Below are positions 31,401 to 46,400 of a stretch of DNA of 64,000 nt, one piece after another. The number at the start of each line of letters is the position of its first letter. Positions within the stretch are counted from its first letter, which is position 1. The DNA lies in assembly GCF_057098645.1 (NCBI RefSeq), contig NZ_CM169472.1; one strand, written 5' to 3'. The position numbers were made by a program.

Positions 31401-34400
31401 CGGTGTTGACGGTCAGTTCGAAGTGCCACTGTAGCGCTTCGTTCAGAGGCAACGTTTTGCCCTCGACGGTGACAGGTTCATCGCCTTTCAGCCACAGCAG
31501 TTCGACAAGTTCTTTCACCAGTGCCGGATCGTTCTGATACCAGACACCCAGCGCGTCACCCGGCTGGTAACGCAGGCCCGAGTCACCTAAGTCAATTTCG
31601 ATATGGCGAACGTCTTTTTCAGAGTTACGCCCGGTAATTTTCTGGTTAACCGAAAGGCTCGCCACCAGCGGCGCGTCTTTGCTGTACGGGCTGGTGTGGA
31701 TTTCATTTACCACGCCAGTAGCGACGGATTGCGAAGGTGCCGCGACAGGCGCACGCGATTTAAGCGCATCAACCACGCGGACGCGCCACTCGCTGGCAGC
31801 AGCCTGGTATTCAACGTCGGCATCGACACGGTCGAGCAGGCGTTCACCACCCAGTTCCGCCAGCTTGCTGTCAAAATCTTTCCCGGACTGGCAGAAAAAT
31901 TCATAAGAGCTATCGCCGAGGCTAAACACGGCAAATGCGGTGTTTTCCAGCTTCGGCGCTTTTTTGGAGAACAGGAACTTATGCAGCGCGACGGCTTCTT
32001 CCGGCGGTTCCCCTTCTCCTTGCGTTGACGTCACCACGATAAGCAGTTTTTCGCTGGCGATTTGTTTGAATTTATAGTCGCCCGCGTTCACCAGCTTAAC
32101 GTTCAGTTTTGCCGCTAATAAATCATCACGTAATGCTTCAGCAACCCGGCGCGCATTGCCGGTTTGCGAGGCGGAGATAATAGTTATACCCGGCATTTCT
32201 GCGGCGGGAGCTGGCGTCGCTGCAAGCGCAGCAGGCTGCTGATTGAGCACGCCCCAGAAATAGCCAGAAACCCAGGCAAGCTGGGTGGGAGTTAAATCGG
32301 TCGTGGCCGCCTGAAGGCGTGCCAGTTGCTCCGGGTTCAACGGAAGCAACGCGGAAGGTGGGACCTGTGTCGTCATGCGTCGTTATGTTCCAGTAAGCAA
32401 AGCTGTTTCTGCGCCCTGTCAGCGCCCATAAAACAGAAGAGAAGGTAAGGTTAACGGGGTGAACGGTGTGGATTAAAGACGGGATAGCGATAACTAATAA
32501 CCAAATCGACTAACCTGTTTTAGCAATAGTCTTTAACAACAAAATAGATTAACCAACCTAATGAAAAACAAATGAATTTAGCCAATCATTAAGATAAATC
32601 AGCGATTTTGCGCAACAAAGTCGTTTTAGATAATGCGAAAAAACAGCCTTTCCGGTACTCTACGGCGGTTTTATCGTCCTGTAGAGAAATTATGATGTCC
32701 ACCACGTTATTTAAAGATTTCACCTTCGAAGCCGCTCACCGCTTACCACACGTCCCGGAAGGGCATAAATGTGGTCGCCTGCACGGGCATTCCTTTATGG
32801 TGCGACTGGAAATTACCGGGGAAGTCGATCCGCATACGGGCTGGATTATCGATTTCGCTGAACTGAAAGCAGCGTTTAAGCCAACTTATGAGCGCCTCGA
32901 TCACCATTATCTCAATGATATTCCAGGCCTGGAAAACCCGACCAGCGAAGTTTTAGCAAAATGGATTTGGGATCAGGTTAAACCCGTTGTGCCGCTGTTA
33001 AGTGCGGTGATGGTAAAAGAAACCTGCACCGCTGGTTGTATCTATCGCGGCGAATGATAAGAGTGTGTCGGCGGTCAATTTCCCTTAAGTAACGCTATGT
33101 TAGGGTGTTGTGTTCTGGATATCTGGGGCATGACATGGAAGACGACTGCGACATTATTATTATTGGTGCCGGTATTGCAGGCACCGCTTGCGCGTTACGC
33201 TGCGCGCGAGCGGGTTTATCCGTTTTGTTACTGGAACGCGCTGAAATCCCCGGCAGCAAAAATCTTTCCGGCGGGCGGTTATATACCCATGCACTCGCGG
33301 AACTCCTCCCTCAGTTTCATCTGACCGCGCCTCTTGAACGACGCATCACTCACGAAAGCCTTTCCCTGTTAACGCCGGATTGCGCAACGACGTTTTCCAG
33401 CTTACAGCCCGGCGGTGAATCCTGGAGTGTATTACGTGCACGGTTCGATCCGTGGCTGGTTGCCGAAGCCGAAAAAGAAGGTGTCGAATGCATCCCTGGT
33501 GCGACGGTGGATGCACTGTATGAAGAAAACGGCAGGGTGTGTGGTGTCATTTGTGGTGACGATATTCTCCGCGCCCGTTATGTGGTGCTGGCAGAAGGTG
33601 CCAACAGCGTCCTGGCTGAACGTCACGGATTAGTGACTCGTCCTGCTGGCGAAGCGATGGCGTTGGGGATCAAAGAAGTGCTGTCGCTGGAAACATCCGC
33701 TATTGAAGAACGTTTTCATCTGGAGAATAACGAAGGCGCAGCGTTGCTGTTCAGCGGCGGGATCTGTGATGACTTACCCGGCGGCGCATTTCTTTATACT
33801 AATCAACAAACGCTCTCGTTAGGGATTGTTTGTCCACTCTCTTCCCTTACGCAAAGTCGTGTTCCGGCAAGCGAGCTGCTGGCTCGCTTTAAAACGTATC
33901 CGGCAGTGCGCCCGCTTATCAAAAACACGGAATCACTGGAGTATGGTGCGCATCTGGTGCCAGAAGGTGGCTTGCACAGTATGCCGGTGCAATACGCCGG
34001 TAACGGCTGGCTGCTGGTGGGCGATGCGTTGCGCAGTTGCGTCAATACCGGAATTTCCGTGCGCGGCATGGATATGGCGCTGACTGGCGCACAGGCGGCG
34101 GCACAAACGCTGATAAGCGCCTGCCAGCACCGCGAGCCGCAAAATCTGTTTCCGCTTTATCATCACAACGTCGAGCGCAGCCTGCTGTGGGATGTTCTAC
34201 AACGTTATCAGCATGTTCCGGCGCTTTTGCAACGCCCGGGATGGTACCGTGCGTGGCCTGCGTTAATGCAGGATATTTCCCGCGATTTATGGGATCAGGG
34301 TGATAAACCTGTTCCACCGCTGCGCCAGTTATTCTGGCGTCATTTACGTCGTCACGGCCTGTGGCATCTGGCGGGCGATGTTATCAGGAGTCTGCGATGT

Positions 34401-43400: not shown

Positions 43401-46400
43401 ATGGATATATCGTTCGATACTGGAAAGCGTGGCGCTGACGCTGAAGAACAATTACGACAATATGTGTAATGAAATGAATCACTTTGCAAAGCATGTGATC
43501 ATTACTGGCGGCGGTTCGAACAGCGATCTGTTTATGCAAATTTTTGCCGACGTGTTCAACCTTCCGGCACGCCGTAACGCCATTAACGGTTGTGCAAGTC
43601 TGGGGGCAGCGATCAATACGGCGGTAGGTCTGGGGCTATACCCGGATTACGCAACGGCTGTCGACAAAATGGTTCGCGTGAAAGATATCTTTATGCCTGT
43701 TGAGAGCAATGCCAAACGCTACGACGCGATGAATAAAGGTATTTTCAAAGACCTAACCAAACATACTGATGTGATCCTGAAAAAATCGTATGAAGTGATG
43801 CATGGGGAATTGGGGAATGCGGATTCGATCCAGAGCTGGTCGAATGCGTAAGTGAGGAAGACCGGGCGGGAAACAGCCCGGCCTGAACATACCTGAATGG
43901 TTATCCCCGCTGACGCGGGGAACATAATAAAAACTTTAACTAGTTCGGTTTATCCCTGTTTTTACAAGGAATATTAACTACACTCGATGTCTTTAGAATA
44001 AAAGACAATACGAATCGCACTTTATCAATTTTCACTTAAAGTATGAACTGGATATCTTTATTCATAAGAACTATTCATCAACAGCGTATAGAGGCGGTTA
44101 TGTAAAACCACTCATTAGCCTCAAAACAAAGACAAACTTCCAGATTTATTACTTAATCAATGAATAACAAGCTTAAAAAATACACTGTTATACTTAAGAA
44201 AAAATTAACAGGCATTAATTAATATTAAAAAATAATATATTAAAATTTCTTAACGGTTTAAGAATTATACAAATAACACTTTGATTAAATTTAATTTTTT
44301 GTATCGATAATTGTGAACTTATCTGGCATGGGGAACTATTTTGAACATGAGGGGTTACGTGGATATGTTGCTTATTACGAGTACTGCTAATATAAAAACT
44401 TGAGAAAGAGATAACGGGTTATATGGTGGTTTATCCCCACTGGCGCGGGGAACTTGAGCCCTGCCAGAATGGGGCCTCTTTTGTACCCGGTTTATCCCCG
44501 CTGCCGCGGGGAACACATTTACTGATTGTACCAGGTAGGAAAAGATCGCGGTTTATCCCCGCTGGCGCGGGGAACTCATGATTGTCGATTTTTTCCGACA
44601 GGATTTTGCGGTTTATCCCCGCTGGCGCGGGGAACTCTCTAAACATAACCTATTATTAATTAATGATTTTTTAAGCCAGTCACAATCTACCAACTTTACA
44701 GTATCACACAAACAACACATCCATTATGTTAAAGAGCACTTAACCAATTGATTAAAAAGGTAAATATTTAAAATAACTCTATACAAACTAAAATCTACCA
44801 AACTTTACCGCAATAATTTTCACTCCAGTGAAAAATTAACGCCACAGAATTTGTAGAGAATGATAATGATTAGTTCAGGATGGGCAAAATGGAGCTTTTT
44901 CAGAGACGACAAAGAATATAAATGAGTAGAAGTCTTTACAGGTTCCACCCATTTATAACGCTTATAAATGTTTAATCAGGCAATATTTAAATATTTATGG
45001 GTTTGCATCGACAAACGCCAATTACGCGCAATGCAGGTTTCAATGCACAAACGTGTGGCATCATCCTTTTGGCTAATCGGCTGCAGTGCAATGACTCGCG
45101 GTTTATCATCGGTCAGCGTCGCCAAAAGTTCATCCAGTGCTTCAATATCACGTACGCGTCCCACTGGGTGCTTGATTTCGTTGGCTCGCTCCAGTGCCTG
45201 TGACAACACTTCATAGCCGCCGCGCATGTTCAGCTTTGGCGATACGGTAACCCAGATATTCGGTGTACAGCGTACCTCATGAGTACCACTGGTCTCGATC
45301 TGGCAGCTAAAACCGTTCTTTTCGAGCAGATCAGTCAGTGGTAGCAAATCATGAATGCAAGGCTCACCACCCGTAATCACCACATGCCGCGCGGTGTATC
45401 CCTGGCGACTAATGACAGCCAACAAGTCTTCACTGCTCGCCGCCCCCCACTTATCACTCTCTTTGGTCTTCGCCAGAATGCTGAAAAGGGAGACTTCCCG
45501 ATCCTCAAGCTTTTCCCAGGTGTGTTTGGTGTCGCACCAGGCACAGCCAACCGGGCATCCCTGTAAACGAATAAAAATGGCGGGGACGCCGGTAAAGTAA
45601 CCCTCACCTTGCAGGGTCTGGAACATCTCGTTAATCGGGTACTGCATAGCATTCTCTGTGAAGTGGATAATTGTTAATTATTGCAGATCCTGCCGCAACA
45701 ATCATGTCTTATTAACATTCTGTTACAGGCAGGTTTAAGGCAAAAAGTGCATTAGATCATAAAGAATAAAATGAAGCGGCGTATTATGTTTTAAGGAATT
45801 AATGAAAAAGGATTTAAACATGCTCAGGATATTCATCGTAATTATATTTATTTTCAATTTATCAGGCTGTGGATATAACGATATTCAAACCTATGATGAG
45901 CAGGTTAACGCCTCCTGGTCTGAGGTATTAAATCAATATCAACGTCGCGCCGATCTTATTCCTAATCTTGTCGCCTGTATTAAAGGTTATTCCAACCATG
46001 AAAAAGACGTTTTGGAAGCCGTAACATTGGCTCGTAGCCAGGCTAATCGCGCCAGCAGCGATCTTCAGCAAGCTCCCGGAGATGCACAAAAATTACAAGC
46101 CTGGCAACAGGCCCAGGCGCAGGTGACTCGCACTCTCGGTCAGTTAACGATAATTAGTGAGCGTTACCCTGAGTTAAAGGCTCAAGAGCTCTATCAAAAC
46201 TTAATGGTACAGCTCGAAGGAAGTGAAAATAGAATTGCCGTTGCGCGAGGAAGATATATTAAAGCCATTGAACAATATAATGTCACTATCCGCAAATTCC
46301 CCGCTGTATTAACCGCAAAGGTCATGGATTACACGCCAAAGAAAAATTATTTACCGGATGATGTCGCCGCAGTAAGTAAAGCCCCAACAATAGATTTTAG

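What the first reader, a model, noticed from the sequence alone, without database searches (positions are those of the whole stretch)
33135..43851. ygc island: ETF/Fix-like electron-transfer set plus FAD oxidase, SDR, two MFS transporters, FGGY kinase and a GlpP-like regulator
ygcN/O/Q/R together resemble a FixC/FixX/FixB/FixA-type electron-transfer flavoprotein system. They are clustered with a FAD-linked oxidase (ygcU), an SDR (ygcW), two MFS transporters (ygcS, yqcE), an FGGY sugar kinase (ygcE) and a GlpP-family regulator (ygcP). The gene content implies oxidation and phosphorylation of an imported polyol or sugar acid, but the substrate is, as far as I know, undefined. This is a conserved 'known unknown' rather than a new island.
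Basis: partly seen in the sequence, partly recalled or inferred. Interest (0 to 1): 0.45.

Follow-up and report, generated by a model that had tools for sequence, protein, structure and literature searches.

The report
Uncharacterised ygc catabolic regulon with RNA switch
The ten ygc genes are real and still have no known substrate, but they form one regulon switched by a previously undescribed leader RNA, and relatives in other phyla suggest they break down a small glycerol-like compound carrying a quaternary-ammonium group rather than an ordinary sugar.

Summary
Window 33135-43851 holds ygcN-O-P, ygcQ-R-S-U-W and yqcE-ygcE exactly as described. At least 80% of the stretch is present in 5060 of 5426 complete E. 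coli genomes. I found no biochemical characterisation up to mid-2026.

1. The ygcW-yqcE intergenic region carries a CRP site flanked by two copies of a conserved 67-nt leader. Each copy is a strong intrinsic terminator whose 5' arm can instead pair with an upstream 7-nt segment. The element is not in Rfam. It co-occurs with YgcP (GlpP family) from Enterobacterales to Firmicutes and is laid out like the B. subtilis glpD leader.

2. YgcU is not a GlcD-type dehydrogenase. It keeps every catalytic residue of alkyl-DHAP synthase.

3. The core (YgcW, YgcE, YgcU, usually YgcP and ETF) is 42-80% identical across phyla. There the same leader also precedes BCCT and OpuB/C-type transporters and an MttB methyltransferase operon.

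Best reading (inferred): a glycerol-like onium compound is phosphorylated, oxidised to a 1-substituted DHAP, and cleaved by YgcU. Electrons would pass through ETF and YgcN/YgcO to quinone. The exact substrate remains unknown.

The parts
33135..34406 (+). ygcN, a FixC-like FAD oxidoreductase and candidate ETF:quinone oxidoreductase
   Evidence: ORF and annotation. NCBIfam PRK10015 378 bits and FixC 360 bits, both below cutoff. Found only in Enterobacterales loci, 35 of 46.
34397..34657 (+). ygcO, a FixX-like ferredoxin; overlaps ygcN by 10 nt
   Evidence: NCBIfam FixX 82 bits. CPAG and CLECGTCRLLC cysteine motifs in the translation.
34674..35249 (+). ygcP, a GlpP-family RNA-binding antiterminator
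   Evidence: Pfam PF04309, E 1.6e-62, covering the full model length. Co-occurs with the leader RNA: 56/5/2/23, Fisher p 5e-14.
35396..36256 (-). ygcQ, a divergent ETF alpha subunit
   Evidence: Pfam ETF_alpha 2.3e-17 and ETF 4.3e-05. Only 57-62% identical even to Citrobacter.
36253..37032 (-). ygcR, a divergent ETF beta subunit; overlaps ygcQ by 4 nt and ygcS by 23 nt
   Evidence: Pfam ETF 1.5e-16. Coordinates.
37010..38419 (-). ygcS, an MFS transporter of the sugar-porter / organic-cation / NiaP-like type
   Evidence: NCBIfam hits to the aromatic-acid, sugar-porter and 2A0119 cation-transporter subfamilies. It is 26.5% identical to the nicotinamide transporter NiaP, and overexpression raises NMN yield from nicotinamide (PMC8601175).
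38441..39895 (-). ygcU, a flavoenzyme with the alkyl-DHAP-synthase type of active site
   Evidence: Pfam domains. Best solved relatives are ADPS, profile E 9e-56, against 1e-36 for glycolate oxidase. R262, R337, Y398 and H438-H440 align with the ADPS catalytic residues and are invariant in alignment A1.
39965..40750 (-). ygcW, a KduD-like SDR oxidoreductase that is not an equivalog
   Evidence: NCBIfam KduD 346.1 bits against a cutoff of 369. It is 63-80% identical to homologues in Firmicutes and Desulfobacterota.
40773..40841 (-). Leader RNA of the ygcW-U-S-R-Q operon: an antiterminator/terminator switch
   Evidence: Terminator scan finds 19 pairs followed by a T-run. Covariance model gives 78 bits, E 1e-14. 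Fold is -34.2 kcal/mol, z -6.2; the alternative 7-bp hairpin is -6.7. Covariation supports both helices.
40875..40890 (.). CRP site TGTGATCGTAATCACA shared by the two divergent operons
   Evidence: Read directly from the sequence. ChIP-seq peak with the same motif (PMC4287617). In vitro Kd 1.7 nM (PMC12871828). CRP activation of yqcE-ygcE (PMC8085971).
40980..41045 (+). Leader RNA of the yqcE-ygcE operon, a second copy of the same switch
   Evidence: Covariance model gives 71.5 bits, E 3e-13. Fold is -22.3 kcal/mol, z -3.9.
41069..42346 (+). yqcE, an MFS transporter
   Evidence: NCBIfam gives only weak hits to the D-galactonate and PgtP subfamilies. YqcE-like genes also follow the leader in Photobacterium and a rumen Eubacterium.
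42373..43851 (+). ygcE, an FGGY-family kinase
   Evidence: Best solved relatives are LsrK and the glycerol kinases. The residues aligned with GlpK R83, W103 and D245 are invariant, and E84 is replaced by Cys.

Best explanation
The island is one CRP-activated catabolic regulon under RNA antitermination control.

Shown by tool results:
- The two divergent operons, ygcW-U-S-R-Q and yqcE-ygcE, each begin with the same roughly 67-nt leader.
- By default the leader folds into a very stable intrinsic terminator. An upstream segment AGUUACY can instead pair with the RGURACU part of the terminator's 5' arm.
- The element travels with the GlpP-family protein YgcP across phyla.
- YgcU carries the catalytic residues of alkyl-DHAP synthase.
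- In other phyla the same leader also precedes BCCT and OpuB/C-type transporters and an MttB methyltransferase operon.

Inferred:
- YgcP, loaded with a phosphorylated pathway intermediate, stabilises the weak antiterminator hairpin and lets transcription read through, as GlpP with glycerol-3-phosphate does at B. subtilis glpD.
- The substrate is a small polar compound that combines a glycerol-like diol with an onium (quaternary-ammonium) group. YgcS and/or YqcE import it.
- YgcE phosphorylates the free primary hydroxyl.
- YgcW oxidises the neighbouring secondary hydroxyl, giving a 1-substituted dihydroxyacetone phosphate.
- YgcU deprotonates C1, forms a flavin-N5 adduct and expels the substituent.
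- With water as the incoming nucleophile, the adduct would collapse either to DHAP (redox-neutral) or to a 2-oxo-aldehyde phosphate plus reduced flavin.
- In the second case the electrons would go to the ETF YgcR/YgcQ, then to YgcN/YgcO (FixC/FixX-like), then to quinone.

The identity of the substituent is not established. A deacylated betaine lipid such as glyceryl-trimethylhomoserine is one candidate.
For: Regulation:
- The covariance model finds only two strong matches in the 64 kb window, both in the ygcW-yqcE intergenic region and each pointing into its operon.
- The terminators fold at -34.2 and -22.3 kcal/mol, against -6.7 and -1.4 for the antiterminator hairpins, so termination is the default state.
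- The antiterminator helix is 98.5% paired, has two compensatory pairs, and drops to 16-56% paired when the 3' partner is slid. The terminator has 8 compensatory pairs. Alignment column 29 covaries with both of its alternative partners.
- The element and YgcP co-occur in 56 loci, with 5 loci element-only, 2 YgcP-only and 23 with neither.
- The layout matches the glpD 5'UTR: GGUCC, then a GAG-rich loop, then GACC in the terminator arm (mechanism in PMC9604022).
- CRP binding is documented.

Chemistry:
- The YgcU profile matches ADPS at 9e-56. R262, R337, Y398 and HHH438-440 align with Dictyostelium R352, R447 and Y508 and with the guinea-pig HHH loop. The three Dictyostelium residues are reported as important for catalysis (PMC3509576).
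- YgcE keeps the residues aligned with GlpK R83, W103 and D245.
- In other lineages the YgcU gene ends within a few bases of, or overlaps, the ETF-beta start.

Substrate class:
- 26 of 40 non-Enterobacterales loci hold a BCCT, Opu or MttB gene, and 10 of the other 14 are contigs shorter than 12.1 kb.
- The leader directly precedes BCCT genes, an Opu operon and an MttB operon.
- The nearest solved relatives of these transporters bind ergothioneine, choline, carnitine, glycine betaine, DMSP or trimethylamine.
- Neighbouring genes include a betaine-aldehyde-dehydrogenase-like protein and aspartase-like lyases.
- YgcS is NiaP-like.
Against: - No experiment links any compound to these genes.
- E. 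coli and other Enterobacterales have MFS transporters instead of BCCT or Opu, so their substrate could differ from that of the other phyla.
- ADPS catalysis involves no net redox change, so the dedicated ETF chain is not explained by the textbook reaction. My oxidative variant is chemical reasoning only.
- Several lineages (Halobacillus, Pantoea/Erwinia type, SAR324) lack a linked ETF.
- YgcU lacks the N-terminal domain found only in ADPS.
- The order of the kinase, SDR and YgcU steps is not determined.
- In two Firmicute loci the leader-controlled MttB operon includes a proline-racemase-like gene. That fits a proline-betaine-type compound better than a glyceryl compound.
- The co-occurrence statistics are not corrected for phylogeny.
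Confidence: 0.45

Rival explanations
1. An imported polyol or sugar acid is oxidised by the SDR and by YgcU acting as a GlcD-type D-2-hydroxy-acid or polyol-phosphate dehydrogenase. Electrons go to ETF and FixCX, and YgcE phosphorylates a sugar intermediate.
For: The best NCBIfam hit of YgcW is KduD (346 bits), and the weak hits of YqcE are to the D-galactonate transporter subfamily. YgcU has the GlcD-family domain pair. ETF genes are linked. CRP activation is typical of sugar regulons.
Against: All of these hits are below cutoff. YgcU has HHH where GlcD-type enzymes have EHG, plus the ADPS Arg/Arg/Tyr set. The transporters in the same leader-defined regulon elsewhere belong to onium-compound families, not sugar families. 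YgcW and YgcU are 63-80% identical across those lineages, so I would expect a shared substrate core.
Confidence: 0.2
2. C-N cleavage of a beta-hydroxy quaternary amine, such as a carnitine-like or hydroxyproline-betaine-like compound. The SDR makes the beta-keto ammonium compound. YgcU uses ADPS-type chemistry to expel the amine from the alpha-carbon. The FGGY kinase then phosphorylates the resulting hydroxy-ketone, as LsrK does with DPD.
For: The onium transporters and MttB context fit. A proline-racemase-like gene sits in a leader-controlled MttB/Opu operon. The closest solved relative of YgcE is LsrK, which acts on a hydroxy-diketone. ADPS chemistry removes a leaving group from the carbon next to a ketone.
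Against: The conserved ADPS arginines and the GlpP-type regulator suggest that YgcU's substrate is already phosphorylated. Non-Pyl MttB enzymes would have no role if trimethylamine were released. No downstream enzyme for the resulting product is conserved in the core.
Confidence: 0.15
3. An alternative glycerol-3-phosphate or glycerophosphocholine route. YgcE is a glycerol-kinase variant, YgcU with ETF is a G3P dehydrogenase, YgcP senses G3P itself, and the choline-type transporters reflect the use of glycerophosphocholine.
For: YgcP belongs to the G3P-responsive antiterminator family. YgcE resembles glycerol kinases. One locus has glpD-like and second FGGY genes next door.
Against: A simple phosphodiesterase already handles glycerophosphocholine, so this route would waste ATP. 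GlpK E84 is replaced by Cys in the YgcE family. The SDR would have no role. A study of seven carbon sources lists yqcE-ygcE only as CRP-activated.
Confidence: 0.1
4. In E. coli the cluster is a cryptic or decaying remnant that no longer performs a pathway.
For: The ETF subunits and YgcN diverge much faster than YgcU and YgcW, for example 57-62% against 93% identity to Citrobacter. Shorter YgcU variants exist in the protein collection. No phenotype has been reported.
Against: All ten ORFs are intact here. 93% of complete genomes keep at least 80% of the stretch. Both leaders and the CRP site are conserved across Enterobacterales.
Confidence: 0.05

Closest known systems
Bacillus subtilis glp regulon (GlpP antiterminator, glpD/glpFK/glpTQ leaders, GlpK, GlpD)
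   Same: A PF04309 regulator. An intrinsic terminator in the 5'UTR of each target operon, with an upstream segment able to pair with the terminator's 5' arm across a GAG-rich loop. An FGGY kinase whose phosphorylated product is the likely inducer. A flavoenzyme that follows the kinase.
   Different: The host is a gamma-proteobacterium, with a CRP site in place of CcpA control. The leader has its own conserved sequence (AGUUACY AGAG ... GAGAAARGUAAC) and is not in Rfam. The flavoenzyme is ADPS-like with a dedicated ETF chain, not GlpD. An SDR is added. The transporters are MFS, BCCT or Opu, not GlpF or GlpT.
Alkyl-dihydroxyacetonephosphate synthase (ADPS) together with acyl/alkyl-DHAP reductase of ether-lipid biosynthesis
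   Same: YgcU shares the fold family and all catalytic residues tested by mutagenesis in ADPS (Arg, Arg, Tyr) plus the HHH loop. An SDR sits next to it, as an SDR-type reductase follows ADPS in ether-lipid synthesis (that part from my own knowledge).
   Different: YgcU lacks the N-terminal domain found only in ADPS. The context is catabolic, soluble and bacterial, with a kinase, transporters for polar compounds and an ETF partner. The direction would be cleavage, not formation, of the C1 substituent.
E. coli cai/fix system (CaiT, a BCCT antiporter, with FixABCX for carnitine)
   Same: A FixA/B/C/X-like four-protein electron chain dedicated to one pathway for an onium compound.
   Different: There are no CoA-transferase, CoA-ligase or acyl-CoA dehydrogenase genes. 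The Ygc ETF/Fix proteins fall far below the Fix equivalog cutoffs. The direction of electron flow is unknown.
LctBCD lactate dehydrogenase/ETF complex of Acetobacterium woodii
   Same: A VAO/GlcD-family flavoenzyme encoded next to ETF beta and alpha. The second FAD oxidase found in anaerobe loci is GlcD-like, and one locus has a ferredoxin-domain ETF alpha.
   Different: E. coli lacks that second oxidase, and YgcU itself lacks the GlcD-type EHG motif.
Lsr autoinducer-2 pathway (LsrK kinase)
   Same: LsrK is the closest solved relative of YgcE. It phosphorylates a small hydroxy-ketone whose phospho-product is the regulatory ligand.
   Different: There are no LsrG, LsrF, LsrR or LsrACDB homologues. 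The match is far below the LsrK equivalog cutoff (138 against 528 bits).

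Membership tests
GlpP-type antitermination system | Regulator with a G3P_antiterm (PF04309) domain | tested here: met
   YgcP matches at E 1.6e-62 over model positions 1-173 of 173.
GlpP-type antitermination system | Intrinsic terminator in the 5'UTR of each regulated operon | tested here: met
   Window 40773-40841 (-) and 40980-41045 (+). Folds are -34.2 and -22.3 kcal/mol, each followed by a U-run.
GlpP-type antitermination system | Alternative structure or protein site overlapping the terminator's 5' arm | tested here: met
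   The 7-bp helix is 98.5% paired with 2 compensatory pairs. One column covaries with both alternative partners. The arrangement matches the glpD UTR. Protein binding itself was not tested.
GlpP-type antitermination system | Glycerol-3-phosphate as effector | not testable with these tools
   The ligand is unknown. I infer it is a phosphorylated intermediate of this pathway.
Alkyl-DHAP synthase (EC 2.5.1.26) | VAO-type FAD-binding domain plus cap domain | tested here: met
   PF01565 and PF02913. ADPS chains are the best solved matches.
Alkyl-DHAP synthase (EC 2.5.1.26) | Catalytic Arg, Arg and Tyr (Dictyostelium R352, R447, Y508) and the HHH loop | tested here: met
   They align with YgcU R262, R337, Y398 and H438-440, all invariant in 12 sequences from several phyla. 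Their roles are taken from PMC3509576.
Alkyl-DHAP synthase (EC 2.5.1.26) | [quoted passage not shown] | tested here: not met
   YgcU is 484 aa against 584-658 aa. Alignments start at ADPS residues 137-180. The domain is described in PMC3509576. YgcU is therefore not filed as an ADPS.
Alkyl-DHAP synthase (EC 2.5.1.26) | Exchange of the acyl group of acyl-DHAP for a fatty alcohol | not testable with these tools
   This needs an enzyme assay.
GlcD / D-lactate dehydrogenase type FAD dehydrogenases | EHG(V/I)G motif near the C-terminus | tested here: not met
   YgcU has VHHHGIGK, whereas the second oxidase of other phyla has TEHGVGK. The GlcD equivalog scores 143 bits against a cutoff of 568.
ETF / FixABCX electron-transfer system | ETF beta and ETF alpha subunits | tested here: met
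   YgcR has PF01012 at 1.5e-16. YgcQ has PF00766 at 2.3e-17 and PF01012. Both are far below the FixA and FixB equivalog cutoffs.
ETF / FixABCX electron-transfer system | FixC-like flavoprotein and FixX-like ferredoxin | tested here: met
   YgcN scores 360-378 bits against the FixC-type models, below cutoff. YgcO scores 82 bits against FixX and has an intact Cys motif.
ETF / FixABCX electron-transfer system | Electron bifurcation (second FAD, NADH site) | not tested
   I made no residue-level comparison.
FGGY carbohydrate kinases | Two-domain FGGY fold with the catalytic Asp | tested here: met
   Matches to LsrK, XylB and GlpK models and structures. D209 aligns with GlpK D245.
Glycerol kinase (GlpK) | Glycerol-binding R83-E84 pair, W103 and D245 | tested here: not met
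   R84, W103 and D209 are conserved, but E84 is Cys (motif IRCCR). The GlpK equivalog scores 100 bits against a cutoff of 590.
KduD (2-dehydro-3-deoxy-D-gluconate 5-dehydrogenase) | Score above the curated equivalog cutoff | tested here: not met
   346.1 against 369 bits and 274.6 against 338.9 bits.

The most novel reading that the evidence does not exclude
The ygc regulon encodes a widespread, undescribed route for breaking a bond that simple hydrolysis cannot break: the link between a glycerol unit and a quaternary-ammonium head group, for example in deacylated betaine lipids such as glyceryl-trimethylhomoserine or GCC. The route would run ether-lipid chemistry in reverse: kinase, then SDR, then an ADPS-like flavoenzyme. 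It would be switched by a new class of GlpP-type leader RNA shared by Proteobacteria, Firmicutes and Actinobacteria.
Probability: 0.2. Interest if true: 0.85.

Novelty: new variant of a known kind. Interest (0 to 1): 0.6.

Why it matters
These are ten of the remaining function-unknown genes of E. coli K-12.

The analysis turns 'unknown sugar cluster' into specific, cheap tests:
- A defined RNA switch that can serve as a reporter to screen for the inducer.
- A defined protein-RNA pair, YgcP and its leader.
- A mechanistic prediction for YgcU, namely ADPS-type covalent flavin chemistry used for catabolism.
- A narrowed substrate class: onium compounds with a glycerol-like part.

If the pathway acts on betaine-lipid head groups or a related abundant osmolyte, it would fill a gap in marine, hypersaline and gut carbon and nitrogen cycling. 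It would also be the first catabolic role for an ADPS-type enzyme. From my own knowledge, GlpP-type antitermination has been studied only in Firmicutes, so a conserved target in Enterobacterales would widen that mechanism.

Tried and rejected
- Literature by gene names and b-numbers. Many false hits: 'ygcen' DOIs, ycgO/ycgR typos, and catalogue numbers. No characterisation was found.
- Searches for MttB+FGGY, ADPS+ETF+BCCT and betaine-lipid catabolism found no described pathway.
- Rfam at E up to 1 over 32900-45100 found nothing at the leaders.
- The AlphaFold2 model of YgcU from the 12-sequence alignment was poor (mean pLDDT 61), so I ran no fold search and drew no structural conclusion.
- A weak covariance-model hit at window 7412-7471 (17 bits, E 0.13) and opposite-strand hits on the palindromic terminators were treated as chance or mirror matches.
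- The glycerophosphocholine idea was considered and ranked low. A phosphodiesterase would suffice, and the SDR and YgcU would have no role.
- The DHPS (sulfonate) idea was dropped because the linked transporters are for cations or zwitterions.
- I could not fetch the Nenci et al. ADPS paper, so residue roles come from a review.
- The B. subtilis glpD leader could not be scored with the covariance model, because only held loci can be searched. That comparison is by eye.

Full report
**1. What is there**

The window matches E. coli O145:H28 chromosomes at 100% identity. Coordinates 33135-43851 run exactly from the ygcN start to the ygcE stop. The layout is ygcN-ygcO-ygcP (+), then ygcQ-ygcR-ygcS-ygcU-ygcW (-), then yqcE-ygcE (+).

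The stretch lies between queD and queE, with cysJIH and cas3 further upstream. Gene overlaps suggest tight coupling: ygcN/ygcO by 10 nt, ygcQ/ygcR by 4 nt and ygcR/ygcS by 23 nt. At least 80% of the stretch is present in 5060 of 5426 complete E. coli genomes.

However, every NCBIfam match is below its curated cutoff, so none of the proteins is an equivalog of a characterised enzyme.

K-12 annotation still calls all ten genes 'putative'. Ten full-text searches found no biochemical assignment. A 2026 paper still treats ygcU as an uncharacterised FAD-binding oxidoreductase. The observation and the 'known unknown' status are therefore confirmed.

**2. A conserved leader RNA**

The 318-bp ygcW-yqcE intergenic region contains a perfect CRP site, TGTGATCGTAATCACA, at 40875-40890. 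This site is a ChIP-seq peak (PMC4287617) and binds CRP at 1.7 nM in vitro (PMC12871828). The yqcE-ygcE operon is listed as CRP-activated (PMC8085971).

On each side of the CRP site, just upstream of the first start codon, lies a long hairpin followed by a U-run:
- 40773-40841 (-) before ygcW, with 19 pairs and a fold of -34.2 kcal/mol.
- 40980-41045 (+) before yqcE, with a fold of -22.3 kcal/mol.

Upstream regions of the ygcW homologues in 80 loci from other species show the same element, from Enterobacterales to Halobacillus, Geosporobacter, Sporomusa and Photobacterium. Its consensus is AGUUACY-AGAG-N(3-6)-GAGAAARGUAACUUCC...GGAAG..GCUUUUCUC-U(7-9).

The upstream AGUUACY is complementary to the RGURACU inside the terminator's 5' arm.
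- On a 19-sequence alignment this 7-bp helix is 98.5% paired and has compensatory changes at two pairs. It falls to 16-56% paired when the partner is slid.
- The terminator helix has eight pairs with compensatory changes.
- Alignment column 29 changes together with both of its alternative partners, as expected for two mutually exclusive structures.
- The antiterminator hairpin alone is weak, at -6.7 and -1.4 kcal/mol. Termination is therefore the default, and a factor is needed to prevent it.

A covariance model built from the alignment finds only these two strong matches in the 64-kb window. Rfam has nothing there even at E up to 1.

**3. Link to YgcP**

Across 86 loci, the element and a YgcP homologue occur together in 56. 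The element occurs alone in 5 loci, four of which are contigs of about 12 kb or less. YgcP occurs alone in 2, both of which have weak model hits. Neither occurs in 23. Fisher's exact test gives p = 5e-14, not corrected for phylogeny. Loci that use GntR, LysR or sigma-54 regulators, mostly Desulfobacterales, lack the element.

The B. subtilis paradigm is that GlpP with glycerol-3-phosphate disrupts a terminator in the 5'UTR of glpD, glpFK and glpTQ (PMC9604022). The published glpD UTR reads GGUCC-UGAGAUGAGGAGA-GACC..., with the GACC inside the terminator arm. By eye this is the same arrangement: a short upstream segment, a GAG-rich loop, then the 5' arm of the terminator.

I therefore infer that YgcP is the antiterminator for both E. 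coli operons, and that its ligand is a phosphorylated pathway intermediate. Binding and ligand are untested. ygcNOP has no copy of the element.

**4. YgcU is ADPS-like**

The best solved relatives of YgcU are alkyl-DHAP synthases. With a family profile the E-value is 9e-56, against 1e-36 for glycolate oxidase and 8e-26 for LctD.

The alignments place YgcU R262, R337 and Y398 on Dictyostelium R352, R447 and Y508. A review lists those three as important for catalysis by mutagenesis (PMC3509576). The same YgcU residues R262 and Y398 correspond to guinea-pig R419 and Y578, and H438-H440 fall on the guinea-pig HHH615-617 loop. All are invariant in 12 family members from several phyla.

GlcD-type enzymes, including the second oxidase found in other phyla, have EHG at that position.

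YgcU lacks the N-terminal domain found only in ADPS. It is therefore not an ether-lipid synthase, but it probably performs the same kind of chemistry. That chemistry is deprotonation of the carbon next to the ketone of a DHAP-like substrate, covalent attachment to flavin N5, and expulsion of the substituent on that carbon (mechanism).

**5. The core and its company in other phyla**

| Protein | Identity between E. coli and distant phyla |
|---|---|
| YgcU | 65-75% |
| YgcW | 63-80% |
| YgcE | 42-57% |
| YgcP | 50-61% |
| ETF subunits | 26-38% |

The phyla compared include Firmicutes, Desulfobacterota and SAR324 for the enzymes.

YgcN, YgcS and (above my ORF-length cutoff) YgcO were found only in Enterobacterales loci. 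YqcE is nearly so, with one exception.

The usual operon elsewhere is [YgcP] SDR-FGGY-YgcU-[ETF beta-ETF alpha-second GlcD-like oxidase]-transporter. The transporter is a BCCT protein in 14 loci or an OpuB/C-type ABC system in 8. Non-Pyl MttB methyltransferases occur in 8 loci, once together with a corrinoid protein and a pterin methyltransferase. In all, 26 of 40 non-Enterobacterales loci carry at least one of these, and 10 of the other 14 are contigs shorter than 12.1 kb.

The strongest link is that the same leader RNA directly precedes BCCT genes (L002, L067, L068, L071), an Opu operon (L076) and an MttB-PanB-Opu operon (L078). These genes therefore belong to the same regulon and are not merely neighbours.

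The nearest solved relatives of the Opu binding protein bind ergothioneine, choline, acetylcholine, carnitine and glycine betaine. Those of the BCCT protein carry trimethylamine, DMSP, glycine betaine, carnitine and choline.

Some loci add further genes:
- a betaine-aldehyde-dehydrogenase-like enzyme with an aspartase-like lyase (L003; the lyase also in L054);
- an aldo-keto reductase related to triose-phosphate-aldehyde and methylglyoxal reductases;
- a formaldehyde-activating enzyme.

In E. coli, YgcS resembles the nicotinamide transporter NiaP, and its overexpression raises NMN formation from nicotinamide (PMC8601175).

**6. Proposed mechanism (inferred)**

The pieces fit a pathway for a small compound that joins a glycerol-like diol to an onium group:
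1. The compound is imported.
2. YgcE phosphorylates it. YgcE keeps the residues aligned with GlpK R83, W103 and D245 but has Cys in place of E84.
3. YgcW oxidises the adjacent secondary hydroxyl, giving a 1-substituted DHAP.
4. YgcU removes the substituent by ADPS-type chemistry.

With water as the incoming group, the flavin-bound intermediate is a carbinolamine. It could release DHAP, which is redox-neutral. Alternatively it could collapse to a 2-oxo-aldehyde phosphate and leave the flavin reduced.

The second route would explain why the ETF genes so often follow ygcU, ending within a few bases of or overlapping the ETF-beta start. It would also explain why E. coli adds a FixC/FixX-like pair that could pass electrons to quinone. 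This is my chemical reasoning and is not shown.

Free deacylated betaine lipids do exist in nature (GCC; PMC10362313). I found no described pathway for their breakdown. They are a candidate substrate, but only a candidate.

**7. Weak points**

- Enterobacterales use MFS transporters, so their substrate may differ.
- Some lineages have no linked ETF.
- A proline-racemase-like gene in a leader-controlled MttB operon points to proline-betaine-type compounds.
- The order of the enzymatic steps is unknown.
- The ETF subunits and YgcN evolve much faster than YgcU and YgcW, which I cannot explain.
- The structural model of YgcU was too poor to use.

**8. Verdict**

The finding is real and correctly labelled as a conserved unknown. 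The 'polyol or sugar acid' guess is not the best-supported one.

The new, checkable results are:
- the YgcP-type leader RNA, present in two copies here, conserved across phyla and absent from Rfam;
- the ADPS-type active site of YgcU;
- the membership of onium-compound transporters and an MttB operon in the same regulon elsewhere.

The system is a new variant of known kinds: GlpP-type antitermination, ADPS-type flavin chemistry and Fix/ETF electron transfer, in a combination that has not been described.

Noticed in passing
window 43852-44975: The 1.1-kb unannotated gap between ygcE and queE is AT-rich (GC 0.34). It holds a small type I-E CRISPR array: four regular repeats GGTTTATCCCCGCTGGCGCGGGGAAC at 44426-44637, spaced about 61 nt, plus two degenerate repeats at 43896 and 43945. 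Other E. coli records annotate 'CRISPR' at the matching place.
   Followed up: partly
window 35288-35348: A REP-like palindromic element (gcctgatgcgacgct...gcgtcttatcaggcctac) sits between the convergent ygcP and ygcQ genes. It gives a sub-threshold Rfam hit to naRNA4, 29.8 against 59.5 bits.
   Followed up: no
window about 25135-27698 and 45762-49333 (from L001 coordinates): cas3 lies upstream of cysH. Downstream of queE lie a LemA gene and several TPM-domain genes, one of them annotated as a truncated pseudogene.
   Followed up: no
L066 9850-9912, L067 9828-9913, L071 8715-8798: In three Clostridia loci, a second copy of the leader element lies inside the operon, between the FGGY kinase gene and the YgcU gene. 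This suggests a second checkpoint before YgcU and ETF are expressed.
   Followed up: partly
L037, L042, L048, L051 (Pantoea/Erwinia/Serratia type) and L053 (SAR324): These loci lack ETF and FixCX. Instead they carry an aldo-keto reductase and a formaldehyde-activating enzyme homologue that scores above its NCBIfam cutoff (134.9 against 118 bits). The four Enterobacterales loci also carry a succinate-semialdehyde-dehydrogenase-like gene. A formaldehyde-activating enzyme in non-methylotrophs next to this core is unexplained.
   Followed up: partly
L003 1932-4788 and L054 (Lyase_1 next to MttB): An aspartate-ammonia-lyase-like gene (466 bits, below its cutoff of 510) occurs next to the core in a Bacillus-class genome and in a Desulfopila genome. 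In L003 it sits with a betaine-aldehyde-dehydrogenase-like gene, a zinc alcohol dehydrogenase and a BCCT gene. This would fit oxidation of a released ammonium alcohol to an aspartate-like acid, followed by amine elimination.
   Followed up: partly
L075 10004-15538 and L078 about 8679-14030: A leader-controlled operon encodes MttB, a PanB (ketopantoate hydroxymethyltransferase) homologue above its cutoff, an Opu ABC transporter and a proline-racemase-like protein. The PanB homologue in a methyltransferase operon is odd.
   Followed up: no
window 42373-43851 (YgcE residues 83-87): The YgcE family has IRCCR where glycerol kinases have the glycerol-binding QRET. Arg84 is invariant and Cys86 nearly so. 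Cys85 aligns with GlpK E84 but is neither invariant nor nearly invariant in the 10-sequence alignment.
   Followed up: partly
window 33135-37032 compared with 38441-40750: Evolutionary rates are very uneven within the island. Against Citrobacter, YgcU and YgcW are 92-96% identical, while YgcQ is 57-62%, YgcR 70-74% and YgcN 73-77%. Against Serratia or Rahnella, YgcU is 80-84% identical but YgcQ, YgcR and YgcN are only 33-51%.
   Followed up: no
protein collection, P0008 / P0028 / P0023 / P0045 / P0046: Shorter YgcU variants occur in E. coli and E. albertii sequences, for example 415 aa with 845 members and 412 aa with 328 members. They could be truncated gene calls, other start-site choices or frameshifts in part of the population.
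   Followed up: no
Genome-contig scan, L008-L087: Among Enterobacterales the island is patchy. It is found in Escherichia, several Citrobacter, one Klebsiella species (K. spallanzanii), Pluralibacter, Cedecea, Serratia, Rahnella, Pantoea and Erwinia. No Salmonella or K. pneumoniae appears among the 80 best species-level hits, where an orthologue would be expected to rank. L008, labelled a Planctomycetota MAG, and L031, labelled Chryseobacterium, carry 99% and 88% identical copies. These look like contamination or mis-binning.
   Followed up: no
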